In this document: positions 8,874 through 31,390 of the stretch, one piece after another
Numbering within the stretch: position 1 is the stretch's first letter
How the letters are laid out: each line of letters starts with the position of its first letter
Source: an uncultured Flavobacteriaceae bacterium
GTDB taxonomy: Bacteria > Bacteroidota > Bacteroidia > Flavobacteriales > Flavobacteriaceae
Direction of reading: 5' to 3'
DNA: 64,000 bases
Assembly (NCBI GenBank): GCA_963704895.1
Contig: CAVPID010000002.1
Coordinates: forward strand, 638,752-702,751
Program-made: the position numbers and the translations under genes
Notes under the pieces: model-generated
Told to the model about the DNA's origin: nothing
Seen by the model: the letters and a program-made list of their open reading frames with translations, nothing else
Databases searched by the model: none

Positions 8874-10367
8874 TTATTCCATTTTATTGCTCATAATTCC
8901 GTAAAACACCTGAATACCATAAGCAATCTGACCAATTTTTAAATTTTCGTTAGGGCTGTGTTGATTGTTATCCGGATTCACAAGAGGAACAAGAAAAGCT
9001 GGAATCTTAAGTTCGTTAATAAAAGGCGCAATTGGAACCGTACCTCCCATGATCCTTATTTGTACTACATCCTCTGAGAATGTATTTTTAAAGGTATCCA
9101 CCAGGAAATTACCATAAGGATTGTCCAAATCCGTTCTGAATGCATCTGTGACTGTGCCTTCTGTAATAGTGATGATTTTCTCGTGCTTCATTCTTTGGCT
9201 CTTATCCGGGACTTCAGTCATAACATAATACCCTTGATTTTCGACATGTTTCTTTACCAGACTTTTCAAACGATCTCCATCAGATTCTGGTACAAGGCGA
9301 ATGTCTATTTCAGCAGTAGCACTTTCAGGTACTATGGTTCGGGCTTTTTCACCAACCCATCCTGAAGATAACCCCCGAATATTTAATGAAGGATATTGCA
9401 TGGCTTCCTGATAAAATGCGCCTACCTTTTCAGCTTGTTTGATGGCAAGATGGGTGTTTATAGTTTTAGCATCATCCGGTACACTTTGGAGTATATTCAT
9501 TGTCGATTCATCAATTTCAATACCATCATAGTAACCTTCAATTAATACTCTTCCATCGGTATCTTTCATACTGGCCAATACCTGGGCCAATTGGAACCCG
9601 GGATTTGGGGCATAATTACCATAATGACCACTGTGTTGCGGCATTATTGGACCGTAGGTAGTTAGCGTTAATGTTGTTATGCCTCTGGTGCCATATGCAA
9701 TTGTTGGTTTACCCGAAGAATGGACAGGACCATCTGAAATGATCAGAAAATCTGCTTGTAACAGGTCACTATATTCTTTTACGGCCTTTGGCAAGGGTGC
9801 ACTACTTTTTTCTTCTTCTCCGTCTAATATTACTTTTACATTAAATGGAATTTGCACGTTGTTTTTTTTCAATAGATCAATGGTATTTAAGAACATAACA
9901 ATTGGTCCCTTGTCATCTGATGTTGAACGGCCAAATAGGCGCCAATCATAATTCACATCCTCCTTTAAATCATCAAACGAAAGTGTTTTCCAAACATCAT
10001 TATCCTTTGTTTTAAGCTCTACTTTATAAGGATCTGACTGATCCCACTTGGAAGGTTCCACGGACTGCCCATCGAAATGCATGTAAAAAAGTATTGTCGG
10101 CTTGTCATCTTCCATGGGGAGGGCCGCAAAAAAAAGCGACTCCCCTTCTGTAGGAAGTACGGATGAATTAAAACCCCTTTCATTGAATTTTTTGGTGAGC
10201 CATGAAAGGTTTCTGTTGATATCTGAATGATCCAAGGCATCGTTCGGGATTGCCACGAATTCTCGTAGTTCATCTATGGTATGGCGGACTTGCGCTTTTA
10301 GTTCAAGGTCTTGTGCATTGTTAATCCATAAGATAAGAAGAGAAAAACAGGTCAATAAATTTTTCAT
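8874..10367 (-). CDS. Secreted M20-family metallopeptidase (dipeptidase-like)
   Basis: 497 aa with a signal peptide. HFDGQ, GRSTSDDKGP and DGEEEKSS match M20 metal- and catalytic-site motifs. Confidence 0.8.
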   Translation of the reverse strand: MKNLLTCFSLLILWINNAQDLELKAQVRHTIDELREFVAIPNDALDHSDINRNLSWLTKKFNERGFNSSVLPTEGESLFFAALPMEDDKPTILFYMHFDGQSVEPSKWDQSDPYKVELKTKDNDVWKTLSFDDLKEDVNYDWRLFGRSTSDDKGPIVMFLNTIDLLKKNNVQIPFNVKVILDGEEEKSSAPLPKAVKEYSDLLQADFLIISDGPVHSSGKPTIAYGTRGITTLTLTTYGPIMPQHSGHYGNYAPNPGFQLAQVLASMKDTDGRVLIEGYYDGIEIDESTMNILQSVPDDAKTINTHLAIKQAEKVGAFYQEAMQYPSLNIRGLSSGWVGEKARTIVPESATAEIDIRLVPESDGDRLKSLVKKHVENQGYYVMTEVPDKSQRMKHEKIITITEGTVTDAFRTDLDNPYGNFLVDTFKNTFSEDVVQIRIMGGTVPIAPFINELKIPAFLVPLVNPDNNQHSPNENLKIGQIAYGIQVFYGIMSNKME

Positions 10368-10407
10368 ATGGTAGTGTAAATTGATTATGATTTAAAATTA
10401 GGTAATT

Positions 10408-10632
10408 CTATGGGTTGATCAAATGCTTTAATCTTAAAACAAGTAATCGAATTAAAAGAACAAAAGGAAATCCATGAAAAAAGAGATCAAACCAATCCAT
10501 GGGTTTCATACCAATACTTCCTCCGAAAACCCATTTTAATTTACCCCATAAATGAGGCTCAGGGAAAAAAGGAGCCATTCCAAGGGTTAAACATAATAAG
10601 AATACAATTTTCCAATTATTAATTACATTCAT
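10408..10632 (-). CDS. Small hydrophobic protein (74 aa) translationally coupled to trpA
   Basis: Two predicted TM segments. Its ATG overlaps the trpA TGA as ATGA (forward tcat at 10629..10632). Confidence 0.5.
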   Translation of the reverse strand: MNVINNWKIVFLLCLTLGMAPFFPEPHLWGKLKWVFGGSIGMKPMDWFDLFFHGFPFVLLIRLLVLRLKHLINP

Positions 10633-11402
10633 GGATATGGGTTAAGATGTTTAATAAATTCTGAAATCCCAGCCGTACCTTGCTGTGATAACATTTTAAT
10701 AAATGCAGAACCAATGATAGCACCCTTGGCTGTCTTAGTAGCTTGCTCAAATGTACGGGCATTACTTATGCCAAAACCAACAATTTGCGGGTTTTTAAGA
10801 TTCATTGCTGCAATTCGCTCAAAGTAAGCTTCCTGTTCTTCTCCTAATCCCTGCTTAGCCCCGGTGGTACTGGCAGAACTTACCATGTAAATAAATCCCT
10901 CTGAAGCGTCGTCTATTTGTGAAATTCGTGATTCACTGGTTTGCGGAGTAATTAGAAAAATGTTGATTAAGTTATATTTTTTAAAAATAGTCTCATATTC
11001 TTCCTTGTATACGTCCAGAGGTAAATCTGGAAGGATAAGACCATCAATACCTATTTCCTGGCATTTTTTGCAGAAGTTCTCTACCCCGTACTGTAAAACA
11101 GGATTAAAATACCCCATAATGATCAGGGGAATCGAAACGGTTTTTCTTATATCTTTTAATTGATTAAACAGCAGATCTGTTCCCATGCCATTCTTTAAAG
11201 CTATTGTGGAACTTTTCTGAATAGTAGGCCCGTCTGCCAGAGGATCACTGAAAGGAAGGCCTATTTCTATCATATCAACACCGTTTTTTTCCAAATCCTG
11301 AATAATAGAAACCGTATCATTCAGATTCGGAAAACCGGCAGAGAAGTATATGGAAAGTAATTTTTTGTCTTCACTCAGCTTTTTTTGTATTCTGTTCTTC
11401 AT
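10629..11402 (-). CDS. trpA: Tryptophan synthase alpha chain
   Basis: 257 aa with GFPNLNDT...IEIGLPFSDPLADGPTIQ motifs. Last gene of the trp operon. Confidence 0.95.
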   Translation of the reverse strand: MKNRIQKKLSEDKKLLSIYFSAGFPNLNDTVSIIQDLEKNGVDMIEIGLPFSDPLADGPTIQKSSTIALKNGMGTDLLFNQLKDIRKTVSIPLIIMGYFNPVLQYGVENFCKKCQEIGIDGLILPDLPLDVYKEEYETIFKKYNLINIFLITPQTSESRISQIDDASEGFIYMVSSASTTGAKQGLGEEQEAYFERIAAMNLKNPQIVGFGISNARTFEQATKTAKGAIIGSAFIKMLSQQGTAGISEFIKHLNPYP

Positions 11403-11416
11403 TTTATAGAAACCAA

Positions 11417-12604
11417 TTATAATTTGAAATAATCTATATAGGTCTGTAAATCTTTATCACCTCTTCCAGAAAGATTGATAACAACAATATCGTCTTTTTG
11501 AAACTTTCTGTGGTCAAATATGGCGAAAGCATGTGATGTCTCTATTGCTGGTATAATGCCTTCTAATTGAGATACCATTAAACCTGCTGCCATTGCCTCA
11601 TCATCGGTAATTGAAATAAATTCACCCCTCCCGGAGGTGTACAGATGTGCATGCATAGGACCTACGCCCGGATAATCCAGGCCGGCGGAAATAGAATATG
11701 GTTCAGTGATCTGACCGTCTTGAGTTTGCATAAGCAGTGTTTTGCTACCGTGAATAATACCAACCTTTCCCAGAGCAGAAGTTGCTGCACTTTCTCCGGA
11801 ATGAATGCCCTTTCCGGCGGCCTCGACAGCAATGATACCAACATCTTCATTATCCAGATAATGGTAATAGGCACCAGCGGCATTACTTCCACCACCCACA
11901 CAAGCCACAATAAAATCAGGGTCCGGAGTGCCTTCTTTTTCCAGCAACTGAGACTGTATTTCCTCTGAAATTACTGATTGAAATCTGGCCACCATATCGG
12001 GATAGGGGTGCGGACCAACAACTGAACCTATAATATAATGGGTGTTTACCGGATTATTAATCCAGTCGCGTATTGCCTCATTCGTAGCATCCTTGAGCGT
12101 TCTGCTACCCGATAGGGCCGGCCTTACTTCTGCTCCCAGCATTTTCATTCTAGCCACATTAGGTGCTTGACGTGCAATATCTATTTCACCCATATAAACC
12201 ACACACTCAATTCCCATGAGTGCGCAAACTGTAGCGGTAGCCACCCCATGCTGTCCGGCACCTGTTTCTGCGATGATTCGTGTCTTGCCTAACCTTTTGG
12301 CCATTAAAATTTGCCCAATGGTATTATTGACTTTATGGGCACCGGTATGACATAAATCTTCCCTTTTCAGATAAATTTTTGTTTTATACTTATCCGAAAG
12401 GCGTTGGGCAAAATATAGAGGTGTGGGCCTTCCTACATAATCTTTTAATAGTCTATGGAATTCTTCAATAAAAGATGGTTCCCCCATAATCTGAAGATAG
12501 TTTTGTCTAAGTTCTTCAGTATTAGGGTATAGCATTTCTGGAATAAATGCCCCACCAAACTGTCCGTAATAGCCTTTGTCATCAGCATGATAAGTCATAT
12601 TCAT
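11417..12604 (-). CDS. trpB: Tryptophan synthase beta chain
   Basis: 395 aa with the [19 protein letters not shown]-lysine motif and GGGSNA. Confidence 0.97.
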
Positions 12605-12610
12605 ATTTTT

Positions 12611-13252
12611 TTATGAGTTGGTTTCAAACAACCGGTTCTTAAATTCTTTTAATTTATCTATATCCTTTAGGCCCGGTGATATTTCAAATTTACTATTGAC
12701 ATCAATAGCATGGCAATATTTAGATTCTTCCTTTTGAAGAAATTCTAAAACATTATCAACTTCCTCGAGACCGATACCCCCGCTTAGGAAATAGGGTTTT
12801 TTTGATGGATACCCCTTTAGGACTTCCCAGTTAAATTGATATCCATTGCCACCGGGCAACTTACCCTTTGTGTCGAATAAAAAGAAATCGGATGATTTCT
12901 CATAAGGGCTAAGTTGTAGGAAATCAAAGCTGTCTTTTATGCTAAAAACCTTAAGAATATCGATCTTGCTATTTTGGCAGTCAAATTCCTCTTTTAGCTT
13001 AGCACAGAACTCGGGGGATTCATTTCCATGCAATTGTATGGCATTTAAAGCAAATGTATTGGTCCGATTTAAGATTTCATCAATATTGGCATCAACAAAA
13101 ACTCCAACTTTTCTAGTTGTCTTAGGCAATTTAGGTATGGACCCATCAAAAAAACGCATAGAAGGCTTCCAGAATATAAATCCGAGGTAATCTGGCTGCA
13201 ATTCTGCAACCTCCTCAATATTATGTTTCATTCCACAGATCTTTAGTTTCAT
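12611..13252 (-). CDS. trpF: Phosphoribosylanthranilate isomerase
   Basis: 213 aa starting MKLKICGM, with YLGFIF and LHG motifs. It has a 4-nt overlap with trpC. Confidence 0.9.
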   Translation of the reverse strand: MKLKICGMKHNIEEVAELQPDYLGFIFWKPSMRFFDGSIPKLPKTTRKVGVFVDANIDEILNRTNTFALNAIQLHGNESPEFCAKLKEEFDCQNSKIDILKVFSIKDSFDFLQLSPYEKSSDFFLFDTKGKLPGGNGYQFNWEVLKGYPSKKPYFLSGGIGLEEVDNVLEFLQKEESKYCHAIDVNSKFEISPGLKDIDKLKEFKNRLFETNS

Positions 13253-14038
13253 CTTGCCATTTGGTTTATAAATTCCCTGGCGCTCTCCCCGGGGTTCGAT
13301 GTCTTCATAAAGTTTTCACCAACTAAGAAACCCTGATAACCCAATTCTCTTAGCATTTTAATCGCCGAAACAGAGCTAATACCACTTTCTGATACTTTTA
13401 CAAATTCATCGGGAATCTGTTGGGATAGAGAGGCACTGGTTTCTAAGCTTACTTCAAAGGTTTTTAAGTTGCGATTATTTACTCCTAACATATCTAAACT
13501 AGGCATCATTGATTTAACTAACTCTTCTTCATTATGAACTTCCAGTAAAACATCCAAACCTAAACTTTTTGCTAATTCTGATAAAACCTTTATTTGTTTT
13601 CTTGTCAAAATAGCGGCAATAAGTAAAATTGTATCAGCCCCATGTGCCCGGGCTTCTACGATTTGGTATTCATCTATGATAAATTCCTTTCTTAACAGTG
13701 GAAAATCAACGGCAGCTCTGGCTATTATTAAATCCTCAAGAGACCCTCCAAAATATTTGGCATCTGTTAAAACAGACATACCACAAGCCCCTGCATTCAT
13801 GTATCCCTTGGCGATATCCTGTACACTTGAATTTTGATTGATCACTGATTTAGAAGGGGATCTTCTTTTGTGCTCTGCAATAATCCCTGTTTTACTATTC
13901 CGCAATGACATTGGCCAGGGACACGGGTTCCCTTTGGAAGAGTAATGACGTTTCTAATTGCATAAGAGGGATTACGGTTTTTTTAAGGTGCAATTCCCTT
14001 TTCTTATCAACTACTATTTTATCCAATATATCCATCAT
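13249..14038 (-). pseudogene. trpC: Indole-3-glycerol phosphate synthase, frame-disrupted (two overlapping frames)
   Basis: The track ORF 13249..13911 (220 aa) lacks the TrpC N-terminus. By hand, ATG 14038 (ATGA overlap with the trpD stop) encodes MMDILDKIVVDKKRELHLKKTVIPLMQLETSLLFQREPVSLANVIAE*, ending at 13895. The body continues one base out of frame (..SLRNSKTGIIAEHKRRSPSK). Removing one base near 13909 gives a contiguous TrpC of about 262 aa. Confidence 0.85.
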
Positions 14039-15027
14039 GCACTTAATTGCTGTAATTTTCTTAAGGCATTCAGGCCATTTCCGTTAAGGAGGGATTCTTT
14101 TGCTTTTTCAAAACCTTGTTTTGGACTAATATCCAAAACTGTGGCGATAGCAACCCCGGCATTTGCACAGACTACATTGTTTTGTGCTTCCGTGCCTCTT
14201 CCCTGTAATATATTCATAAATATTTGGGCAGATTTGTCAATACTTTCACCTCCCTTTATTTCGTTTTCCTTTACAACGGCCACTCCAAAATCTGAAGGAT
14301 TTAAAATAGCCTCCGTATTATTTGAAATAGTTTTGGTACTTCCCGTCAATGAAATCTCATCATATCCGTCAAGAGCATGGAGAACTGTGTATTTTTTATC
14401 CGTATTCTGATAGAGATACCCATACATTCGAGCTAATTCTAAATTAAAAACCCCAACTATTTGATTTTTAGGGAAGGCAGGATTTACCATTGGCCCAAGC
14501 ATATTAAAAAAAGTCTTGACAGCAAGTTCACGTCTTATAGGTGCTACATTTTTCATGGCGGGATGAAATAGGGGGGCATGCAGTACACAGATCCCGGCTT
14601 CGTCTATTGATTTTCTAAGAAAGTCAGGATCATTACTGAATTTTACACCTAAAAATTCCATAACATTACTGCTCCCACAGGTAGAAGAAACCCCATAATT
14701 ACCATGTTTGGTTACCTTAATGCCAGCTCCTGCTGTAACAAAGGAAGCCAGAGTTGAAATATTAAAGGTATCCTTGCCATCTCCTCCTGTTCCGCAAAGA
14801 TCAATTGGATTGTATTCGGATAGATCAATGGCCAGGCATAGTTCTAATAGCGCATCTCGAAATCCCTCTAATTCTTCAATCGTAATACTACGCATCATAT
14901 ACACTGTAAGAAATGCAGCGATTTGGCTATTGTTATAAGTTCCTTTGGCAATATTAACCAATACCTGCTTTGCATCTTCCTTGGAGAGGATGTCATGATT
15001 GATCAATTTATTTAGAATCGTTTTCAT
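14035..15027 (-). CDS. trpD: Anthranilate phosphoribosyltransferase
   Basis: 330 aa with CGTGGDGKDTFNIST and KHGN motifs. Confidence 0.95.
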   Translation of the reverse strand: MKTILNKLINHDILSKEDAKQVLVNIAKGTYNNSQIAAFLTVYMMRSITIEELEGFRDALLELCLAIDLSEYNPIDLCGTGGDGKDTFNISTLASFVTAGAGIKVTKHGNYGVSSTCGSSNVMEFLGVKFSNDPDFLRKSIDEAGICVLHAPLFHPAMKNVAPIRRELAVKTFFNMLGPMVNPAFPKNQIVGVFNLELARMYGYLYQNTDKKYTVLHALDGYDEISLTGSTKTISNNTEAILNPSDFGVAVVKENEIKGGESIDKSAQIFMNILQGRGTEAQNNVVCANAGVAIATVLDISPKQGFEKAKESLLNGNGLNALRKLQQLSA

Positions 15028-15064
15028 TTGTTTTAAGTTTAATAAAGAATCACCAACGGTTTAA

Positions 15065-15628
15065 TTATTCCCTGAGCCAATTTTTAAGAATTTGCTTGCC
15101 CTGAGGCGTGAGAACAGATTCTGGATGAAACTGAACAGCACATACATCATATGTTTTGTGCCTTATTGACATCAGCTGCCCATTCTCATCAAAAGAAGTA
15201 GCTTCGAGAACATCCGGAAGTTGAGGATCTACAACCCACGAATGATATCTGCCCACTACAATTTCTCTAGGTAAGCCTTCAAATAAGGGCTCCCCATTTT
15301 CAAGGATTATTTTTGTGGCGACCCCATGATAAACTTCCTCTAAATTTATCAACTTACCACCAAAAACTTCTCCTATAGCCTGCTGGCCTAAACAAACCCC
15401 CAATATACTTTTAGTTGGGGCATATTTAGCAATTATTTCTTTAAGAAGTCCGGCTTCATCAGGGATTCCAGGACCGGGAGAAAGCACTATTTTCTCAAAA
15501 TCATCAACTTCTTCCAATTTTAGCTGGTCATTTCGTTTAACAACTACTTCGCAACCCAAATCCTCCAAATAATGCACCAGGTTATAAGTAAAGCTATCGT
15601 AATTATCTATTACCAGTATTTTGTTCAT
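15065..15628 (-). CDS. trpG: Anthranilate synthase component II (glutamine amidotransferase)
   Basis: 187 aa class-I GATase with GVCLGQQ and QFHPES motifs. Confidence 0.93.
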   Translation of the reverse strand: MNKILVIDNYDSFTYNLVHYLEDLGCEVVVKRNDQLKLEEVDDFEKIVLSPGPGIPDEAGLLKEIIAKYAPTKSILGVCLGQQAIGEVFGGKLINLEEVYHGVATKIILENGEPLFEGLPREIVVGRYHSWVVDPQLPDVLEATSFDENGQLMSIRHKTYDVCAVQFHPESVLTPQGKQILKNWLRE

Positions 15629-15647
15629 GGCTTATTTATTGTGCTTG

Positions 15648-17046
15648 TTAGATAGTTTCTGCAATTTCCAGAGCTTTGTTAAGAGCTCCTAATTTATTGT
15701 AAGTTTCCTGTAGCTCTTTTTCCGGTTCAGAGACCGCTACTAAACCTGCTCCTGCCTGGTAATGAAGTTGGTGATTCTTGCTTAAGAAAGTCCGGATCAT
15801 AATGGCATGATTAAAATCTCCGTCAAAATCCATAAATCCGATTGCCCCGCCGTAGTAATCTCTGTTGGTGGTCTCATACTTTTCAATGAGCTGCATGGCC
15901 ATATGTTTGGGTGCCCCGCTCAGGGTACCTGCCGGAAAAGTGTCTGCTACAACTTTCATAGTCGGTGTTTCTTTTTTTTTCTGCCCTGTAACTTTGGAAA
16001 CAAGATGAATGACATGAGAAAAGAATTGAACTTCCCTATAGTTTTCAACATTTACCAAATTCCCATGCCGGCTTAGGTCGTTACGCGCGAGGTCTACAAG
16101 CATAACATGCTCACTATTTTCCTTTGCATCTTCTGTTAGTTTTTTAGCTAATAAGGCATCTTCTTCATCATTACCGGTTCTTTTAAAAGTTCCCGCAATT
16201 GGATGTATTTCAGCCTTTCCGCTTTTAACAATCAATTGTGCTTCCGGTGAACTGCCAAAGATTTTGAAGTCTCCGTAATCAAAATAAAATAGATATGGAG
16301 AAGGATTAATAGAACGAAGGGCCCGGTAAACATTGAATTCATCTCCTTTAAAGCCTTGTGAAAACCTTCGGGAAAGAACTAATTGAAAAACGTCACCTCT
16401 TTTACAATGCTTTTTAGCCAGAGATACTTGTTGTTTATATTCTTCATCATTTAAGTTTGATGAGGCATTACCCTCCCTTCTGAAATTATAAGATGCGAAA
16501 TTTCTGATATTTAGAACTTGTTCAATTTCAGAAATATTGTTATCAGAGTCATAGCAATGTGCAAATAAGTATGCCTCATTCTTAAAATGATTTATGGCTA
16601 TTATATTTTGGTAAACAGCGTAATAAATATCAGGAATATCCAGGGCACCTTCTTTTTTTGTGATAGAGATATCTTCAAAGTACCTAACTGCATCATACGA
16701 CATATAGCCAAACAATCCATTATTTATGAATTTAAAACTATTAGATTCGGTCTTAAACTTTTGGCTGAAGTCATGTATAATTTCCACAACATCAGTTTCG
16801 CTGTTTATTGCTGATCTCACTAGTGGATTTGTCCGGAAATAGCTGAGTAATTTGCTCATCCTTTACCGTGATAGAAGCTATAGGATTACAACAGATATAT
16901 GAAAAGGTATTATCATTTGCTCTGTAATCACTACTCTCCAAAAGGATACTATTGGGAAACTTGTCACGAATTTTCAGATATACACTAACCGGTGTTATGG
17001 TATCTGCGAGTATCTTTTTATAATATGTTTTAAGTTCATATGCCAT
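15648..17046 (-). pseudogene. trpE: Anthranilate synthase component I, frame-disrupted (87-aa N-terminal ORF + 403-aa C-terminal ORF)
   Basis: Track ORF 16792..17055 encodes the TrpE N-terminus (ILADTITPVSVYLKIRDKFPNSILLESSDY...) and stops at TGA 16794..16792. Track ORF 15648..16859 carries the rest (LFGYMSYDAVRYFE...GAPK...) one base out of frame. The likely true start is ATG 17046 (MAYELKTYY). Confidence 0.85.
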
Positions 17047-17085
17047 AATCTGCAAAAATTTAGATTTTGATACTAACTAATTCTG

Positions 17086-17123
17086 AAAAATCAAAAAGGC
17101 TTGTCGTGATAGACAAGCCTTTT
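17086..17123 (-). terminator. Rho-independent terminator/attenuator between the trp leader ORF and trpE
   Basis: The minus strand reads AAAAGGCTTGTC-TATCAC-GACAAGCCTTTT followed by TGATTTTT. That is a 12-bp stem (17123..17112 / 17105..17094), a 6-nt loop and a U-tract. It lies about 40 nt upstream of the trpE ATG. Confidence 0.65.
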
Positions 17124-17152
17124 CGTATAGTTATACTACAATGGTGCTTAGC

Positions 17153-17209
17153 TCACGACGTTATACGCAAGTTATTCCACCACCAAGTATTTACTATTCT
17201 AAATTTCAT
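17153..17209 (-). CDS. trpL: Candidate trp operon leader peptide MKFRIVNTWWWNNLRITS (18 aa)
   Basis: Hand translation of the minus strand gives ATG AAA TTT AGA ATA GTA AAT ACT TGG TGG TGG AAT AAC TTG CGT ATA ACG TCG TGA. The three consecutive Trp codons are at 17185..17177. It sits between a promoter and a terminator directly upstream of trpE. Confidence 0.6.
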   Translation of the reverse strand: MKFRIVNTWWWNNLRITS

Positions 17210-17214
17210 TGAGT

Positions 17215-17245
17215 CAAATATAGAAAGGAATTTCATAATTACAAA
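17215..17245 (-). promoter_or_regulatory. Bacteroidota-type promoter (-33 TTTG, 19-nt spacer, -7 TATATTTG) for the trp leader/operon
   Basis: The minus strand reads TTTG (17245..17242), then 19 nt, then TATATTTG (17222..17215). The leader ATG follows 5 nt after the -7 box. Confidence 0.45.
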
Positions 17246-17314
17246 TCAATTTAAAGGAAATATAGATCCAAATTCCAATATTGCATTAAGTGATTATAAT
17301 AACAGTACTGACCC

Positions 17315-18856
17315 CTAATACCTCAATTCTAATCGTTCAGATCTATATAAAATATCAGTTTGGCCCCAAGAACCACTTTTGTTACCATGTTCACTTTTAA
17401 AATCTAGTGTTGCTTCAAAAACCTCTTTACCCGTTTCATAGTCTACTTCAACTAGTTTAGCAGAGAGTTTAGTTCCTTGTTTTAGATAGCCGGAAGTAAC
17501 CAGAATATTATTTGAATTGGCCAGATAATCTGCATCACTGACAATGGTAGAGAAAAATTTCGGCCCTCTTTCTTTGCCATATTGCCAAATCTGCTCTGTA
17601 GTTTTATCTTCTTCATTTATTTTATAAATCACTGCGCGGGAATAATGAACGTTATTTTCAAAATATCTAAAGGCACCGTTATCAAATACCAAAAGATTAC
17701 CATCGGGCATTATAGATGGGGAATGCATTCCCCAGGGAAAGTCAAATTCTTCTGAACTTTCGTTCCCATCCTGAACAGCTCTGTCATATGGTTTTCCTTC
17801 AGAATCAACAGCGGTTAATAAATAAGGTTTTGTTTCGAAACCTTTTCCTTCTCTCCCGGATTTACCCCAGTTCCTTTTTGGTGCCATAATCCATTTTAGA
17901 TTATCATCCCAAGAAATTTTTATCAATCCCTGGTTTTTTCCAGATACAATTATTGAATTATCGCTCGGATTATAAGCAAGGCCATTCATGTGGAGCCAAT
18001 CACGAGGTCTAAAAAAGTTCAAATCATTTCTACTAACATCCAAATGTTTGGTTAAATCCCATTCTCTGACAATTTTAGATTTTTTTCTGTCAAATTCTAT
18101 GATATGATCGCTGTCTGAGGCAACCATTTTATTCTCTAATTTTATAAAATTATTTCTTTTACCAACGCATATCAGCAAGTTACCATCAGGTAATTCCTGT
18201 ACATCATGATGCATGCCGTAATTTGTACTTATATTGGTTTCTTTTAATGGTTTACCCAACATATCAAATTCATAAATAACATGCCTGCTAACCATTAAAA
18301 TCGTTCCGTCCTTAAGTCGTTGAAACGGACTAACCATTTTACCGGCAAAACTTAAATCTAAATACCACCGCACTTGGCCTTGGTCGTCAAAAATTATAGG
18401 CCCGGAATTGAATTTTCCATTGTTGGCAAAATGAATATCACAAGCATGCATGCCTGGCTCCATTTCATTTCGATTTAACTTGTTTATGGTTATCCGGGGA
18501 AAATGGCTTGGGGTATTCCCTGTTTTTATCTTAATACTGTCTATTACTAGTCCACCATCGTAGTCTAAAGTAACAATGACATTATTTAAAGTATTAGGGT
18601 ATAAACCTACTACCGGGACCTCTAAATTGGTGGCGTTAAGATTAAATGTTTGTTCCACCGGAATCTTACCCAGAACCTTAATGGTAACGTTGCAGGGTTT
18701 TTCCGTCTCAATTTTTAACTGAGCGGTTAACGGTGATATATTATAAGGATTTAAGGTCGATTTTATGGAGTAATTAAAACCGGAATCGCAGCTACTCAAG
18801 AGAAGAAGTACAAAAACTAATAAGCCAGCTAAGCGAGATAATGCTTTTAATCCCAT
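17315..18856 (-). CDS. Arylsulfotransferase (ASST)-family lipoprotein
   Basis: 513 aa. Signal peptide with lipobox LLSSC. Beta-propeller-like repeats (HHDVQELPDGNLLI, DWLHMNGLAYNP, PWGMHSPSIMPDGNLLVFDNG) resemble the ASST family. Assignment is by motif memory. Confidence 0.55.
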   Translation of the reverse strand: MGLKALSRLAGLLVFVLLLLSSCDSGFNYSIKSTLNPYNISPLTAQLKIETEKPCNVTIKVLGKIPVEQTFNLNATNLEVPVVGLYPNTLNNVIVTLDYDGGLVIDSIKIKTGNTPSHFPRITINKLNRNEMEPGMHACDIHFANNGKFNSGPIIFDDQGQVRWYLDLSFAGKMVSPFQRLKDGTILMVSRHVIYEFDMLGKPLKETNISTNYGMHHDVQELPDGNLLICVGKRNNFIKLENKMVASDSDHIIEFDRKKSKIVREWDLTKHLDVSRNDLNFFRPRDWLHMNGLAYNPSDNSIIVSGKNQGLIKISWDDNLKWIMAPKRNWGKSGREGKGFETKPYLLTAVDSEGKPYDRAVQDGNESSEEFDFPWGMHSPSIMPDGNLLVFDNGAFRYFENNVHYSRAVIYKINEEDKTTEQIWQYGKERGPKFFSTIVSDADYLANSNNILVTSGYLKQGTKLSAKLVEVDYETGKEVFEATLDFKSEHGNKSGSWGQTDILYRSERLELRY

Positions 18857-24100: not shown

Positions 24101-25711
24101 ATGAAGTACAGACTTCTTTCAATTTTAACCCTATTACTACCAATTTTAACATTTGCTCAGGATAAAGGACTTGATGAAAAGGTGAATGATGCATTTATGC
24201 CAGTTGCTGTTTGGTGGGAAGGTTTTATTCTTACCTCAATTCCCATTGCAGGCTACAATATGCCTTTAGTTCTAATTTTATTAATATTTGGGGCCACTTT
24301 TTTTACAATTTATTTTAAGTTTCCAAATATCACAAAATTTGGATTGGCAATAAATACGGTACGTGGTAAGTATGATGAATTAGACCATCATGGCGTAGAA
24401 AAGGCCGAACTAAATATTGTTGATGGAGATTTGGTCGATACGATTGCCGACGAAAGCAAAGAGGGAGAGGTAAGTCATTTTCAGGCATTGGCTACTGCCG
24501 TTTCCGGAACAGTAGGTCTTGGTAATATAGCGGGAGTAGCTGTAGCTATTGCTCTTGGAGGACCAGGGGCAACTTTTTGGATGATAATTTGTGGTTTAAT
24601 TGGGATGTCTACAAAATTTGTAGAATGTACCCTTGGGGTAAAGTACAGGGATGTAGGTGAAGATGGTACAGTATACGGTGGCCCTATGTATTATTTGTCC
24701 AGAGGATTAAAGGAAAAGGGGTTCACAGGTTTGGGCAAAGTTTTAGCTGCTCTATTTGCTATTTTATGTGTGGGAGCTTCTTTTGGTGGTGGTAACGCGT
24801 TTCAATCTAATCAGGCAGCTGTACAACTGTCTACAATGTTAAATTTGCAGGGCGGAGCTACCGGAGTTATTATTGGCGTAATCCTTGCAATTCTTGTAGG
24901 GATTGTAATCATTGGAGGAATAAAAAAGATTGCCAGTGTGACGGAAAAAATAGTTCCGTTTATGGCTGGTATATACGTTTTGGCTTCGTTGGTTATAATT
25001 TTTGCAAATATTAAATATTTGGGCGAAGCAATAGGGATGATATTTAATGGAGCTTTTACTCCAATGGCCGGTTTAGGGGGTGTTGTAGGGGTAATTATAG
25101 TGGGCTTCCAAAGGGCTGCCTTTTCAAATGAAGCCGGTGCCGGATCTGCTGCAATTGCGCATTCTGCGGTTAAAACAAAGTACCCGGCAAGTGAGGGTGT
25201 TGTAGCTCTTTTGGAACCATTTATAGACACGGTGGTAATATGTACAATGACAGCCTTAGTTATTATTTTCTTCAATATGGATGCAGGGGCCTTTGAATAT
25301 GGCAATGCTGTTAATAGTACTGTTTTAATAACTGAAACGGGTAATTATATAGGAGGAGTCGATTTAACCTCAATGGCTTATGACTCTGTTATTCCCGGAT
25401 TTAGATATATCCTTACTATTGCAATTATTCTTTTTGCATTTTCTACGATGATTTCATGGTCCTATTATGGTCTTCAATCCTGGAAATACCTTTTCGGTCG
25501 AGGTAGAAAAGCAGATGTCGTCTACAAAATTTTATTTTTATTATTTGTAGTTATTGGAGCCGCAGCTACTTTAGATGCCGTAATTAAGTTTTCTGATGCC
25601 ATGATTCTGGCATTGGTGTTTCCCAATATGGTAGGGTTACTGTTTTTATTCCCCAGGGTAAAGGAAGAGCTTAATAAGTATATAGTAGATATAAAAGGTG
25701 TAAGTAAATAA
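24101..25711 (+). CDS. Alanine/glycine:cation symporter (AGCS family)
   Basis: 536 aa polytopic membrane protein with the GGPGATFWM and FSNEAGAGSAAIAH motifs of sodium:alanine symporters. Confidence 0.9.
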   Translation: MKYRLLSILTLLLPILTFAQDKGLDEKVNDAFMPVAVWWEGFILTSIPIAGYNMPLVLILLIFGATFFTIYFKFPNITKFGLAINTVRGKYDELDHHGVEKAELNIVDGDLVDTIADESKEGEVSHFQALATAVSGTVGLGNIAGVAVAIALGGPGATFWMIICGLIGMSTKFVECTLGVKYRDVGEDGTVYGGPMYYLSRGLKEKGFTGLGKVLAALFAILCVGASFGGGNAFQSNQAAVQLSTMLNLQGGATGVIIGVILAILVGIVIIGGIKKIASVTEKIVPFMAGIYVLASLVIIFANIKYLGEAIGMIFNGAFTPMAGLGGVVGVIIVGFQRAAFSNEAGAGSAAIAHSAVKTKYPASEGVVALLEPFIDTVVICTMTALVIIFFNMDAGAFEYGNAVNSTVLITETGNYIGGVDLTSMAYDSVIPGFRYILTIAIILFAFSTMISWSYYGLQSWKYLFGRGRKADVVYKILFLLFVVIGAAATLDAVIKFSDAMILALVFPNMVGLLFLFPRVKEELNKYIVDIKGVSK

Positions 25712-29456: not shown

Positions 29457-29530
29457 GCCGATGTAGCTCAGCTGGCTAGAGCAGCTGATTTGTAATCAGC
29501 AGGTCGTGGGTTCGAGTCCCTCCATCGGCT
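29457..29530 (+). tRNA. tRNA-Thr (anticodon TGT)
   Basis: Hand-folded cloverleaf: acceptor GCCGATG/CATCGGC, anticodon stem GCTGA/TCAGC with loop TTTGTAA. There is one T-T mismatch in the T stem (50:64). No encoded CCA. Confidence 0.9.
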
Positions 29531-29555
29531 CGTAAGAACATAAAATAGCAAGGAG

Positions 29556-29637
29556 GGGGAGATACTCAAGCGGCCAACGAGGACAGACTGTAAATCTGTT
29601 GGTTTTACCTTCGCAGGTTCGAATCCTGCTCTCCCCA
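29556..29637 (+). tRNA. tRNA-Tyr (anticodon GTA), long variable arm
   Basis: Acceptor GGGGAGA/TCTCCCC, anticodon loop CTGTAAA, T arm GCAGG-TTCGAAT-CCTGC. Confidence 0.9.
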
Positions 29638-29774
29638 CAACTGGTTTTTGAGAGCGGTGTTGTGAATAATGCTTATGTTTATCTAAAACCAGGTAAATTT
29701 AGAGTCGGGTTTTATACTCAATTCGGTACTGGAAAATGTTCAGTAAAATTGTTGAAATATTGTAAAATAAAATT

Positions 29775-29847
29775 GCGGGAGTAGCTCAGTTGGTAGAGCG
29801 TCAGCCTTCCAAGCTGAATGTCGCCGGTTCGAACCCGGTCTCCCGCT
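29775..29847 (+). tRNA. tRNA-Gly (anticodon TCC)
   Basis: Acceptor GCGGGAG/CTCCCGC, anticodon stem TCAGC/GCTGA with loop CTTCCAA. Confidence 0.92.
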
Positions 29848-29932
29848 CAAAGAAATTGAGTTAACGTTTGCTATTTTGATCAAGGTTAACATTAAACCTG
29901 ATTATCAAAATATAAAACCTGGAGACCCAAAA

Positions 29933-30004
29933 GCCGACGTAGCTCAGGGGTAGAGCGTTTCCTTGGTAAGGAAGAGGTCACGGGTTCAATTCCCGTCGTT
30001 GGCT
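29933..30004 (+). tRNA. tRNA-Thr (anticodon GGT)
   Basis: Acceptor GCCGACG/CGTTGGC (one G-T pair), anticodon loop TTGGTAA, T arm ACGGG-TTCAATT-CCCGT. Confidence 0.9.
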
Positions 30005-30064
30005 CAAATAAATTAGGCATTAATTATTATACACTAATATAAACTAAGATTAAATTCATTCAAA

Positions 30065-31252
30065 ATGGCAAAGGAAACTTTTGATCGTTCCAAACCGCAC
30101 TTAAATATTGGTACTATTGGACACGTTGATCACGGTAAAACTACATTAACTGCTGCTATTACATCTGTTTTGGCAAACGCAGGATTATCTGAAATGAGAA
30201 GTTTCGATTCTATCGATAACGCTCCGGAAGAAAAGGAACGAGGTATTACAATTAATACATCGCACGTTGAATACTCAACAGCGAATCGTCATTACGCACA
30301 CGTAGATTGTCCTGGTCACGCGGATTATGTAAAGAACATGGTAACAGGTGCTGCACAAATGGACGGAGCAATCCTAGTGGTTGCTGCTACAGATGGTCCA
30401 ATGCCTCAGACCAGAGAGCATATCCTTTTAGGTCGTCAGGTAGGTATTCCAAGAATCGTTGTTTTCTTGAATAAAGTAGACATGGTTGATGATGATGAAT
30501 TATTAGAACTTGTTGAAATGGAAGTAAGAGAGCTTCTGTCTTTCTACGAGTACGATGGTGATAATGGACCAGTTATTTCAGGATCGGCTTTAGGCGCCTT
30601 AAATGGAGAGCAAAAGTGGGTAGATACGGTTATGGAATTAATGACTGCCGTTGATGAATGGATTGAATTGCCAAAAAGAGATGTTGAAAAAGATTTCTTA
30701 ATGCCTGTTGAAGATGTGTTTACAATTACTGGTCGTGGTACTGTTGCAACCGGCCGTATAGAAACTGGAATAGCCAATACTGGTGATCCTGTTGATATAA
30801 TTGGTATGGGTGCTGAAAAATTAACCTCTACTATTACCGGGGTTGAGATGTTCCGTAAAATTTTGGATAGAGGAGAAGCTGGTGATAACGTAGGTATTTT
30901 ATTAAGAGGTATTGAAAAATCACAAATTAGCAGGGGAATGGTTATTTGTAAGCCAGGTTCTGTTAAACCGCATGCTAAATTTGAAGCTGAGGTATATATC
31001 CTTAAAAAAGAAGAAGGTGGTCGTCATACACCATTCCACAACAACTACCGTCCACAGTTTTATGTTAGAACAACGGATGTTACAGGAACAATAAATCTTC
31101 CTAGTGGTGTTGAAATGGTAATGCCTGGTGATAACCTGACTATTACTGTAGACCTTATCCAGCCTATCGCATTAAGCGAAGGGCTTCGATTTGCTATCCG
31201 TGAAGGAGGTAGAACCGTAGGTGCCGGTCAGGTAACTAAGATTTTAGATTAA
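30065..31252 (+). CDS. tuf: Elongation factor Tu
   Basis: 395 aa with [15 protein letters not shown] and NKVD GTPase motifs. Near-universal EF-Tu sequence. Confidence 0.99.
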
Positions 31253-31317
31253 TCACTATATAATTTTTACACTAAGGGTGTCCCGCTTAGGCAGGATACC
31301 TTTCAGTGTAATTATAA

Positions 31318-31390
31318 ACGGGTGTAGCTCAGTTGGTAGAGCACTGGTCTCCAAAACCAGGTGTCGGGAGTTCGAGCCTCTCCTCCCGTG
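31318..31390 (+). tRNA. tRNA-Trp (anticodon CCA)
   Basis: Anticodon stem CTGGT/ACCAG with loop CTCCAAA. Acceptor ACGGGTG/CTCCCGT has a T-T mismatch at 6:67. It is in the conserved position between tuf and secE. Confidence 0.85.

What the first reader, a model, noticed from the sequence alone, without database searches (positions are those of the whole stretch)
17086..17245. Candidate leader-peptide attenuator with three consecutive Trp codons upstream of the trp operon
Several elements lie on the minus strand, just upstream of trpE:
- A Bacteroidota-type promoter: TTTG, 19 nt, TATATTTG (17245..17215).
- An 18-codon ORF, MKFRIVNTWWWNNLRITS (17209..17153), with TGG TGG TGG at 17185..17177.
- A 12-bp-stem hairpin with a U-tract (17123..17086).
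- The trpE ATG about 40 nt further on, at 17046.

This is the architecture of ribosome-mediated attenuation as established for E. coli trpL. Competing pairings exist. GTCGTGA at the leader stop (17159..17153) is complementary to TCACGAC, which spans the terminator loop and 3' arm (17109..17103). CGTATA (17167..17162) is complementary to TATACG (17129..17124), which abuts the 5' arm. One oddity is that the -7 box ends only 5 nt before the leader ATG. The leader mRNA would therefore be leaderless or nearly so.
Basis: partly seen in the sequence, partly recalled or inferred. Interest (0 to 1): 0.62.

Follow-up and report, generated by a model that had tools for sequence, protein, structure and literature searches.

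The report
Known Bacteroidota trp leader-peptide attenuator
This is an ordinary member of a leader RNA family catalogued in 2010 (Rfam RF01692): a short Trp-rich reading frame and a terminator upstream of trpE that probably switch the tryptophan operon on when tryptophan is scarce.

Summary
The region 17229..17112 (-) matches Rfam RF01692, "Bacteroidete tryptophan peptide leader RNA", at 71.9 bits against a threshold of 49.

In 79 of 79 related Flavobacteriaceae trpE loci that could be checked, an in-frame TGGTGGTGG lies in a 15-20-codon ORF upstream of trpE. It is followed by a near-invariant intrinsic terminator.

GUCGUGA at the leader stop pairs with UCACGAC in the terminator loop and 3' arm. 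It is invariant within the family but covaries across the phylum. For example, Bacteroides vulgatus has GUCGUAAG pairing with CUUACGAC, so the stop-codon change UGA to UAA is matched in the loop.

A second antiterminator helix (UAAGC with GCUUG) and an apical helix (CUUGCG with CGUGAG) complete a three-state switch. With a ribosome modelled on the Trp codons, 78-80 of 80 leaders fold into the antiterminator.

The -7 box spacing predicts a start site at 17210, giving a nearly leaderless mRNA. This spacing is conserved, and leaderless leader ORFs have precedent in other phyla.

No experiment was possible. Novelty: already known.

The parts
17242..17245 (-). -33 promoter element TTTG
   Evidence: Read. 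It lies 19 nt upstream of the -7 box. A TTTG or TTG is present at the same spacing in most relatives (listing).
17215..17222 (-). -7 promoter box TATATTTG (Bacteroidota sigma-A consensus TAnnTTTG)
   Evidence: Read. A TAnnTTTG box lies upstream of the leader ATG in 79 of 80 leaders. The consensus and its position at -12..-5 come from PMC9723704.
17210..17210 (-). Predicted transcription start (A, 1 nt before the leader AUG); inferred, not mapped
   Evidence: Inference. The box spans -12..-5 (PMC9723704), so +1 falls at 17210. The gap from the box G to the ATG is 5 nt in 47 leaders and 4-9 nt in 69 of the 79 that have a box.
17153..17209 (-). Leader ORF, 18 codons plus stop: MKFRIVNTWWWNNLRITS*
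   Evidence: A homologous ORF with an in-frame WWW is present in 79 of 79 related loci. Family consensus: M-x5-NTWWWNNLRxxS*.
17177..17185 (-). Three consecutive Trp codons (the sensor)
   Evidence: Invariant columns in the 80-sequence alignment A1.
17178..17197 (-). H1 5' strand. It includes the first two Trp codons and the UG of the third, and pairs with 17146..17127.
   Evidence: MFE folds. The inner 11 pairs are formed in 84.8% of cells, the outer part in only 55.8%. This corresponds to the Rfam model hairpin.
17127..17146 (-). H1 3' strand (CACCATTG..AGTAT..ACTAT)
17166..17171 (-). H2 5' strand CUUGCG. It pairs with CGUGAG at 17157..17152 and lies inside the footprint of a ribosome stalled on the Trp codons.
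   Evidence: MFE fold. 90.2% of cells pair across 80 leaders.
17152..17159 (-). Pivot segment GUCGUGAG, containing the leader stop codon UGA. It pairs either with H2 5' (17171..17166) or with the terminator loop and 3' arm (17109..17103).
   Evidence: CGTGA is invariant in 80 leaders.
17146..17150 (-). AT2 5' strand UAAGC. It pairs with GCUUG (17118..17114) in the terminator 5' arm.
   Evidence: 84.5% of cells pair. It forms together with AT1 in the constrained folds.
17092..17125 (-). Intrinsic terminator hairpin (14 pairs, loop UAUCAC). Its loop and 3' arm hold the AT1 partner UCACGAC (17109..17103).
   Evidence: Terminator scan. 97.6% of cells pair, with one compensatory column. Computed energy -21.0 kcal/mol.
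17086..17090 (-). U-tract of the terminator
17112..17229 (-). Extent of the Rfam RF01692 Bacteroid-trp match
   Evidence: 71.9 bits, gathering score 49, E = 1.1e-08, full model positions 1-131.
10629..17046 (-). Regulated operon trpE-G-D-C-F-B-A. In this window trpE and trpC each carry a +1 frameshift.
   Evidence: Pfam domains; frameshifts.

Best explanation
This is the tryptophan leader-peptide transcription attenuator of Bacteroidota (Rfam RF01692), controlling the trpEGDCFBA operon. The steps below are inferred unless marked otherwise.

**Start of the transcript.** A sigma-A promoter (TTTG, 19 nt, TATATTTG) starts transcription at about 17210. The 18-codon leader ORF is therefore translated from a nearly leaderless mRNA.

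**The pivot.** The segment GUCGUGAG contains the leader stop codon and has two alternative partners.

**Tryptophan abundant, or no translation.**
- Without a ribosome, the pivot is held in the apical helix H2 (CUUGCG with CGUGAG) inside the long hairpin H1, which pairs the Trp codons with CACCA.
- With a ribosome translating to the end, the pivot is covered by the ribosome sitting on UGA.
- In both cases the terminator (14 pairs plus U-tract) forms and transcription stops 40 nt before trpE.

**Charged tRNA-Trp scarce.**
- The ribosome stalls on UGG UGG UGG.
- Its footprint opens H1 and covers the 5' strand of H2.
- The freed pivot and the adjacent UAAGC pair with the terminator 5' arm (GCUUG), loop and top of the 3' arm (UCACGAC).
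- This antiterminator blocks the terminator, and RNA polymerase reads into trpE.

**Shown here:** the sequence features, family membership, conservation, and covariation of the terminator and of the pivot-loop helix.

**Inferred:** the start site, translation of the ORF, ribosome stalling and tryptophan dependence.
For: **Family match.**
- The window matches RF01692 at 71.9 bits against a gathering score of 49.
- 16 of 20 diverse relatives also pass the threshold.

**Conservation.**
- 79 of 79 related trpE loci have an in-frame TGGTGGTGG in a short ORF upstream.
- TGGTGGTGG, CGTGA and most of the terminator, including C-CGAC in the loop and 3' arm, are invariant in 80 leaders.

**Pair counts on the 80 leaders.**
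- Terminator: 97.6% of cells paired.
- H2: 90.2%.
- Inner H1: 84.8%.
- AT1 plus AT2: 88.0% paired, against 16-43% when the partner is slid by 1-3 columns.

**Compensatory changes in AT1 across the phylum** (seed sequences with flanks from PMC2864571):
- B. vulgatus: GUCGUAAG with CUUACGAC, 8 perfect pairs.
- Parabacteroides: GUCGUAAG with CUUGCGGC.
- A Cytophagia-like genome: UCUGUGAA with UUCACAGG.
- Cytophaga hutchinsonii: UCGUGAA with UUCACGG.
- A marine flavobacterium: GUCGAU with AUCGAC.
- A Robiginitalea-like genome (NZ_AAOI): GUCGUGAC with GUCACGAC.
- In 10 of 14 lineages the best complement starts -4 to +3 nt from the stop codon.

**The motif is conserved as RNA.** In Aquimarina-like leaders UCGUGA is kept although the reading frame over it differs (WWWSSQNENVVR*). 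The constraint is therefore on the RNA, not on the peptide.

**Constrained folding.**
- With a ribosome mask on any Trp codon and the transcript cut just after UCACGAC, the antiterminator forms in 78-80 of 80 leaders.
- It forms in 17 of 80 without a ribosome.
- With the ribosome at the stop codon it forms in 0 of 80, but that result is trivial because the mask covers the pivot.
- Window energies: terminator -21.0, H1 plus H2 -20.9, antiterminator -16.6 kcal/mol.

**Published support.**
- In F. psychrophilum the homologous leader is expressed upstream of trpE-pabA-trpDCFBA. Read-through is seen under specific conditions, and expression is highest in minimal medium (PMC9723704 supplement).
Against: - There are no experimental data for this organism. 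It is known only from sediment metagenomes. The RNA-labelled runs gave contigs that span the intergenic region and show no start site or short terminated transcript.
- Within Flavobacteriaceae the AT1 core never varies, so covariation comes only from hand-registered comparison with about a dozen distant lineages. Per-lineage shuffle support is modest, from 2/2000 to 363/2000. B. thetaiotaomicron, the AAXU sequence and the ABCM sequence fit poorly.
- At equilibrium the complete terminator always wins, even with a stalled ribosome. The switch must therefore be kinetic, which I could not model.
- RNAalifold recovers only the terminator as a consensus structure.
- AT1 needs the loop and the first 3 nt of the 3' arm to have been transcribed. 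That leaves a short time window before the terminator is complete.
- In this particular assembly trpE and trpC are frameshifted. The operon the leader controls may therefore be non-functional in this strain.
Confidence: 0.85

Rival explanations
1. It is a leader-peptide attenuator, but the antiterminator is not the pivot-loop helix (AT1 plus AT2). Another pairing, or simply ribosome-dependent disruption of H1, decides termination. The conserved UCGUGA and UCACGA would then serve another purpose, such as a termination or pausing context or a protein site.
For: - AT1 shows no variation inside the 80-leader set, so it gives no internal covariation.
- The terminator is thermodynamically dominant in every state.
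- RNAalifold does not predict AT or H1/H2.
- B. thetaiotaomicron and two other seed sequences fit AT1 poorly.
Against: - The terminator loop is conserved, which is unusual for a loop.
- The loop changes together with the leader stop region in Bacteroides, Parabacteroides, Cytophaga and marine flavobacteria.
- UCGUGA is retained even where it is not read as Ser-stop.
- AT forms in 78-80 of 80 leaders only when a ribosome is modelled on the Trp codons.
Confidence: 0.1
2. The leader is intact but is a relic in this strain. The trp operon it controls is being lost (frameshifts in trpE and trpC), so the element currently regulates nothing useful here.
For: - A single extra base at 16811 splits trpE, and one at 13907 truncates trpC.
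- All 8 public runs that cover 16811 lack that base. All 4 DNA runs that cover 13907 lack that one.
- These are the only two coding indels in 20 kb.
- SNP density is higher across 13.1-15.9 kb.
Against: - The two indels may be assembly errors.
- Removing each base restores a full-length protein without other defects.
- The leader region 17047..17300 is identical in the closest population contigs.
- This rival concerns the strain, not what the element is.
Confidence: 0.2
3. The RNA senses tryptophan status without translation, through a bound protein, tRNA or ligand as in TRAP or T-box systems. The short ORF would be incidental.
For: - Much of the peptide's conservation can be explained by RNA pairing (H1 and H2 overlap codons 7-15).
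- Translation was not tested.
Against: - The ATG, the reading frame and a nearby stop are kept in 79 of 79 loci despite variable codons 2-6 and in-frame indels.
- The run is always exactly UGG x3, although only part of it is paired in H1.
- No T-box or other riboswitch family matches the region.
- The promoter spacing places the AUG at the 5' end of the transcript.
Confidence: 0.04
4. It is a chance ORF next to an ordinary terminator, with no regulatory role.
For: TGGTGGTGG alone occurs twice in the window. 5 of 100 shuffles give at least 2.
Against: - Rfam hit at E = 1e-08.
- Fold z-score of -4.9.
- Conservation in 79 of 79 loci from many genera.
Confidence: 0.01

Closest known systems
Bacteroid-trp leader RNA (Rfam RF01692; Weinberg et al. 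2010, PMC2864571)
   Same: - The window matches the full model above the gathering score.
- It is in the same phylum and the same position upstream of trpE.
- It shares the short ORF with tandem UGG codons, the hairpin over the Trp codons, and the conserved 5' terminator arm AAAAGGCUUGUC.
   Different: Nothing essential differs. The original description gave no antiterminator and called the hairpin loosely conserved. The model also includes about 20 nt that here are promoter DNA (the -7 box) rather than RNA.
Flavobacterium psychrophilum trp leader (THC0290_miscRNA_0046; Guerin et al. 2021, PMC9723704)
   Same: - The peptide is homologous (MNTFLNNTWWWNNLRQTS*).
- The UCGUGA stop region and the terminator arm are the same.
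- The operon order is the same.
- It is expressed, with condition-dependent read-through.
   Different: The F. psychrophilum -7 box lies 16 nt before the AUG, giving a short 5' UTR. Here the gap is 5 nt, so the mRNA is predicted to be nearly leaderless.
Escherichia coli trpL attenuator (Rfam RF00513 Trp_leader)
   Same: The logic is the same:
- tandem Trp codons;
- three mutually exclusive helices (1:2, 2:3 and 3:4);
- a ribosome at the stop codon that blocks the antiterminator;
- an intrinsic terminator before trpE.
   Different: - There is no sequence or model similarity: RF00513 is not among the matches even at E up to 10.
- There are three Trp codons rather than two.
- The pivot strand contains the stop codon itself.
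- The antiterminator reaches into the terminator loop and the top of the 3' arm, not only the 5' arm.
- There is no Shine-Dalgarno leader.
Leaderless leader ORFs: Sinorhizobium meliloti trpL (PMC7298713) and Streptomyces leuL, metL and thrL (PMC8079986)
   Same: The attenuator transcript begins at or next to the AUG of the leader ORF.
   Different: These are in different phyla with unrelated sequences. Their start sites were mapped experimentally, whereas here the start is only predicted from promoter spacing.

Membership tests
Rfam RF01692 Bacteroid-trp | Covariance-model score at or above the curated gathering score (49 bits) | tested here: met
   71.9 bits, E = 1.1e-08, model positions 1-131 of 131, at 17229..17112 on the minus strand.
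Rfam RF01692 Bacteroid-trp | Located in the 5' region of trpE or trpB in a member of Bacteroidota | tested here: met
   The trpE ATG lies 40 nt beyond the terminator. The operon trpEGDCFBA is identified by Pfam. The closest relatives are Eudoraea and other Flavobacteriaceae.
Rfam RF01692 Bacteroid-trp | Two or more conserved in-frame UGG codons in a short ORF | tested here: met
   UGG x3 in an 18-codon ORF. These columns are invariant in 80 leaders.
Rfam RF01692 Bacteroid-trp | Hairpin enclosing the Trp codons, followed by an intrinsic terminator | tested here: met
   MFE fold. Inner H1 is 84.8% paired, H2 90.2% and the terminator 97.6%. The terminator scan also finds the hairpin.
Ribosome-mediated (leader-peptide) transcription attenuator, trpL type | An antiterminator mutually exclusive with the terminator, freed by a ribosome stalled at the regulatory codons | tested here: met
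   In silico and comparative evidence only:
- AT1 plus AT2 is 88% paired.
- Compensatory changes keep it paired across the phylum.
- It forms in 78-80 of 80 leaders with a ribosome mask.
Ribosome-mediated (leader-peptide) transcription attenuator, trpL type | The leader ORF is translated | not testable with these tools
   No ribosome profiling or proteomics exists for this uncultured organism. Frame conservation in 79 of 79 loci is indirect support.
Ribosome-mediated (leader-peptide) transcription attenuator, trpL type | Read-through of the terminator rises when charged tRNA-Trp is limiting | not testable with these tools
   The only support is by homology: F. psychrophilum shows read-through under specific conditions and highest expression in minimal medium.
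Rfam RF00513 Trp_leader (enterobacterial trpL) | Match to the covariance model | tested here: not met
   RF00513 is not among the matches listed at E up to 10 for 16500..17800. The element works like trpL but is not a member of that family.
Leaderless mRNA | Transcription start at, or within a few nt of, the start codon | tested here: inconclusive
   The start is predicted at 17210, from the -7 box position of -12..-5 and a conserved gap of 4-9 nt in 69 of the 79 leaders with a -7 box. No 5'-end data were obtainable.

The most novel reading that the evidence does not exclude
Two mechanistic details may not have been described for this family.

1. In most marine Flavobacteriaceae the leader ORF would be translated from a leaderless or 1-3-nt-leader mRNA. 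Ribosome loading would then be tied directly to transcript initiation in a phylum that lacks Shine-Dalgarno pairing.
2. The switch would pivot on a segment containing the leader stop codon. That segment invades the terminator loop and the top of its 3' arm, and the stop codon identity (UGA or UAA) covaries with the loop sequence across the phylum.

Both would be refinements of a known mechanism, not a new kind of regulator.
Probability: 0.5. Interest if true: 0.35.

Novelty: already known. Interest (0 to 1): 0.2.

Why it matters
For annotation, this intergenic region should be labelled as the Bacteroid-trp leader (RF01692), with an 18-codon leader ORF that gene callers will miss.

More broadly, the family has never been dissected experimentally. 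The comparative data here give an explicit model that can be tested by mutation:
- a pivot containing the stop codon;
- a helix that invades the terminator loop;
- a near-leaderless start.

Such a model shows how ribosome-mediated attenuation could work in a phylum without Shine-Dalgarno-directed initiation. This is a refinement of textbook biology rather than a surprise.

Tried and rejected
Only 49.5% of cells pair across 80 leaders, which is indistinguishable from shuffles and slid controls. It also crosses the other pairing. Rejected as chance.
- **Equilibrium folding of the full leader with ribosome masks.** The terminator always forms, so this cannot discriminate between states. I replaced it with truncated-transcript folds.
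- **RNAalifold on the 80-leader alignment.** It returned only the terminator, so it says nothing about the alternative helices.
- **RNA-seq evidence for a start site or a short terminated transcript.** Only metagenome-derived contigs exist. The RNA-labelled (oligo-dT) runs cover the intergenic region and the upstream gene evenly, as DNA would. Uninformative.
- **The mapped start site of the F. psychrophilum leader.** It is not in the supplementary files held.
- **The 83-aa ORF on the plus strand (17067..17318), antisense to the leader.** It has no Pfam match and lies over the conserved RNA element. Treated as spurious.
- **The longer in-frame ORF from ATG 17236 (MKFLSIFDSM...).** The extension is the -7 box read as codons, and the upstream ATG is absent from most relatives. 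Rejected as the functional start.
- **Literature search for a described Bacteroidota trp antiterminator.** Nothing was found beyond Weinberg 2010, Rochat 2019 and Guerin 2021. The library searched is limited to open-access papers.

Full report
**Observation.**
- TTTG lies at 17245..17242. After 19 nt comes TATATTTG at 17222..17215.
- The leader ATG is at 17209. The ORF reads MKFRIVNTWWWNNLRITS and ends with TGA at 17155..17153.
- TGG TGG TGG occupies 17185..17177.
- The hairpin is AAAAGGCTTGTC / TATCAC / GACAAGCCTTTT at 17123..17094. It extends to 14 pairs at 17125..17092 and is followed by a T-run to 17086.
- The trpE ATG is at 17046.

The terminator scan finds exactly this hairpin and nothing else in 16500..17800, against 0.4 expected. 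The 170-nt leader folds at -47.5 kcal/mol with z = -4.9. TGGTGGTGG alone is only mildly unusual: 2 in the window against 0.24 expected. The case therefore rests on the whole arrangement and its conservation.

**Context.** Downstream on the same strand lie trpE, trpG, trpD, trpC, trpF, trpB and trpA, identified by Pfam. They are followed by a 74-aa ORF and an M20 peptidase. Upstream is an arylsulfotransferase gene that ends at 17315.

**What it is.** A scan against Rfam gives RF01692, "Bacteroidete tryptophan peptide leader RNA", at 17229..17112 (-). The score is 71.9 bits against a gathering score of 49, with E = 1.1e-08 and the whole model matched. The enterobacterial Trp_leader family does not match.

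Weinberg et al. (2010) defined RF01692. [quoted passage not shown] No consensus diagram was drawn, because the hairpin is "loosely conserved".

Guerin et al. (2021) mapped the homologous leader upstream of trpE-pabA-trpDCFBA in Flavobacterium psychrophilum. They report read-through under specific conditions and maximal expression in minimal medium. Rochat et al. (2019) mention the same element. The kind of element is therefore already known.

**Relatives.** A search of one genome per species with the TrpE protein returned 80 Flavobacteriaceae loci. The closest are Eudoraea, at 93% amino-acid identity.
- In all 79 loci that have the trpE N-terminus, TGGTGGTGG lies upstream in a short ORF. The ORF has 15-20 codons when read from the ATG nearest the Trp run, and its consensus is M-x5-NTWWWNNLRxxS*.
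- In four loci a small GIY-YIG gene has been inserted between the terminator and trpE.
- 16 of 20 diverse relatives also pass the RF01692 threshold.
- In the 80-row alignment A1 the invariant columns include TGGTGGTGG and CGTGA of the Ser-stop region. Most of the terminator is also invariant, including C-CGAC in its loop and 3' arm.

**Structures.** Pair counts on A1:

| Helix | Cells paired |
|---|---|
| Terminator | 97.6% (one column with U-A, U-G and C-G) |
| Apical helix H2 (CUUACG with CGUGAG) | 90.2% |
| Inner H1 (UGGUGG region with CACCA) | 84.8% |
| Outer H1 | 55.8% |

That core is formed in 73-80 of 80 leaders, but it never varies, so it gives no internal covariation.

A second helix that I noticed, UAAGC with GCUUG in the terminator 5' arm (AT2), is 84.5% paired. 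AT1 and AT2 together are 88.0% paired, against 16-43% when the partner is slid by 1-3 columns.

That is no better than shuffles. It would also cross AT1 as a pseudoknot, so I reject it.

**Covariation from distant lineages.** The 2010 seed alignment with flanks (supplement file 14 of PMC2864571) supplies the variation that the Flavobacteriaceae lack.

| Lineage | Leader segment | Terminator loop / 3' arm |
|---|---|---|
| Bacteroides vulgatus (stop UAA) | GUCGUAAG | CUUACGAC (8 perfect pairs) |
| Parabacteroides distasonis and two Bacteroides | GUCGUAAG | CUUGCGGC (8 pairs, 2 G-U) |
| Cytophagia-like genome (NZ_AAWS) | UCUGUGAA | UUCACAGG |
| Cytophaga hutchinsonii | UCGUGAA | UUCACGG |
| Marine flavobacterial scaffold | GUCGAU | AUCGAC |
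| Robiginitalea-like genome (NZ_AAOI) | GUCGUGAC | GUCACGAC |

The stop-codon change from UGA to UAA is matched by UCA to UUA in the loop. An unbiased scan of each leader for the longest complement to "loop plus first four 3'-arm bases" places the best match -4 to +3 nt from the stop codon in 10 of 14 lineages. Per-lineage shuffle counts run from 2/2000 to 363/2000. B. thetaiotaomicron, AAXU and ABCM fit poorly under that strict target definition.

In Aquimarina-like leaders the UCGUGA motif is kept although it is read in another frame (…NENVVR*). This shows that the constraint is on the RNA.

I registered the distant leader segments by hand, which is a weakness.

**Mechanism.** At equilibrium the full terminator always forms, with or without ribosome masks. 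The switch must therefore be kinetic. I folded transcripts cut just after UCACGAC, before the 3' arm is complete.

| Modelled state | Leaders forming AT1 |
|---|---|
| Ribosome on any of the three Trp codons (footprint 9-15 nt beyond the A-site codon) | 78-80 of 80 |
| No ribosome | 17 of 80 |
| Ribosome on the stop codon | 0 of 80 (trivial, since the mask covers the pivot) |

For the window the energies are -21.0 kcal/mol for the terminator, -20.9 for H1 plus H2, and -16.6 for the antiterminator.

The logic matches E. coli trpL, with three differences:
- the pivot strand contains the stop codon;
- the antiterminator extends through the terminator loop into the 3' arm;
- there are three Trp codons.

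**The near-leaderless start.** Guerin et al. place the sigma-A box TAnnTTTG at -12 to -5. In the window this puts +1 at 17210, the A directly before the AUG.

Across the 80 leaders, counting the window, a TAnnTTTG box is present in 79. The gap from its G to the leader ATG is 5 nt in 47 and 4-9 nt in 69. Ten leaders, Aquimarina-like among others, have gaps of 14-30 nt. The F. psychrophilum leader has a 16-nt gap.

Leaderless leader ORFs are already documented for Sinorhizobium meliloti trpL and for Streptomyces leader peptides. I could not obtain 5'-end data. The organism appears only in sediment metagenomes, and the RNA-labelled runs behave like DNA across this region.

**Side observation on the operon.** In the window trpE is split (ORFs at 17055..16792 and 16859..15648) and trpC lacks about 44 N-terminal residues. 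All eight public runs that cover 16811 lack one base there. All four DNA runs that cover 13907 lack one base there. Removing those bases restores a 465-aa TrpE and a full TrpC N-terminus.

Over 20 kb these are the only two coding indels relative to contigs at 99% identity or more. SNPs are denser across 13.1-15.9 kb. Either the assembly has two errors that both fall in this operon, or this strain's trp operon is decaying. The leader itself is identical to the population sequence.

**Verdict.** The element is a member of an already described family, so interest is low. The explicit switch model and the conserved near-leaderless arrangement are modest refinements that remain untested.

Noticed in passing
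window 16811 (trpE) and 13907 (trpC): Each gene carries a single extra base that breaks the frame. trpE is split into 87-aa and 403-aa ORFs, and trpC lacks about 44 N-terminal residues. All 8 public runs that cover 16811 lack that base, and all 4 DNA runs that cover 13907 lack that one. Removing them restores full-length proteins. These are the only coding indels in 20 kb. They are either assembly errors or strain-specific pseudogenisation of the trp operon.
   Followed up: partly
window 13100-15900: SNPs against the population contigs (99% identity or more) are denser over trpF-trpC-trpD-trpG-trpE than in the flanks: about 14 shared SNPs in 2.8 kb, against about 1 per kb elsewhere. About half of those I checked change an amino acid. 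This could reflect relaxed selection or a recombination tract.
   Followed up: partly
L019, L020, L034, L063 (between the leader terminator and trpE): A roughly 95-aa GIY-YIG nuclease-domain gene (Pfam PF01541, E = 2.5e-19) is inserted between the attenuator and trpE in four species. It is flanked by short GC-rich hairpins (TTCCGC..GCGGAA). It looks like a small mobile or selfish gene that has landed in the attenuator-trpE spacer and would be co-transcribed on read-through.
   Followed up: partly
window 17072-17135: Depth spikes and spurious joints occur in metagenome and metatranscriptome contigs at the terminator (for example 16049 to 17093). They arise because contigs from other flavobacteria share the near-invariant sequence AAAGGCTTGTC..CACGACAAGCC. 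The motif occurs only once in the window itself.
   Followed up: yes
window 17234-17236: An upstream ATG, in frame with the leader ATG, would give a 27-codon ORF (MKFLSIFDSMKFRIV...). The extension is the -7 promoter box read as codons (SIFD). The upstream ATG is absent from most relatives, so mechanical ORF callers would report the wrong start.
   Followed up: yes
window 17067-17318 (+): An 83-aa TTG-initiated ORF lies antisense to the whole leader region. It has no Pfam match and is probably spurious.
   Followed up: partly
window 8874-10632 (-): Directly after trpA come a 74-aa ORF with no Pfam match, overlapping the trpA stop by 4 nt, and a 497-aa M20-family peptidase. In F. psychrophilum a peptidase gene downstream of the trp operon is reported to be co-transcribed with it (PMC6414381). 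A similar link may exist here.
   Followed up: no
window 29457-31390 (+): A cluster of five tRNA genes was found by the Rfam gathering scan.
   Followed up: no
window 24784-24792 (+): This is the second TGGTGGTGG in the window. I did not examine it, and it is presumably inside a coding region.
   Followed up: no
window 18992 and 19034: Two single-A differences from all four closest population assemblies lie in the intergenic region upstream of the arylsulfotransferase gene. In each case the window lacks an A.
   Followed up: no
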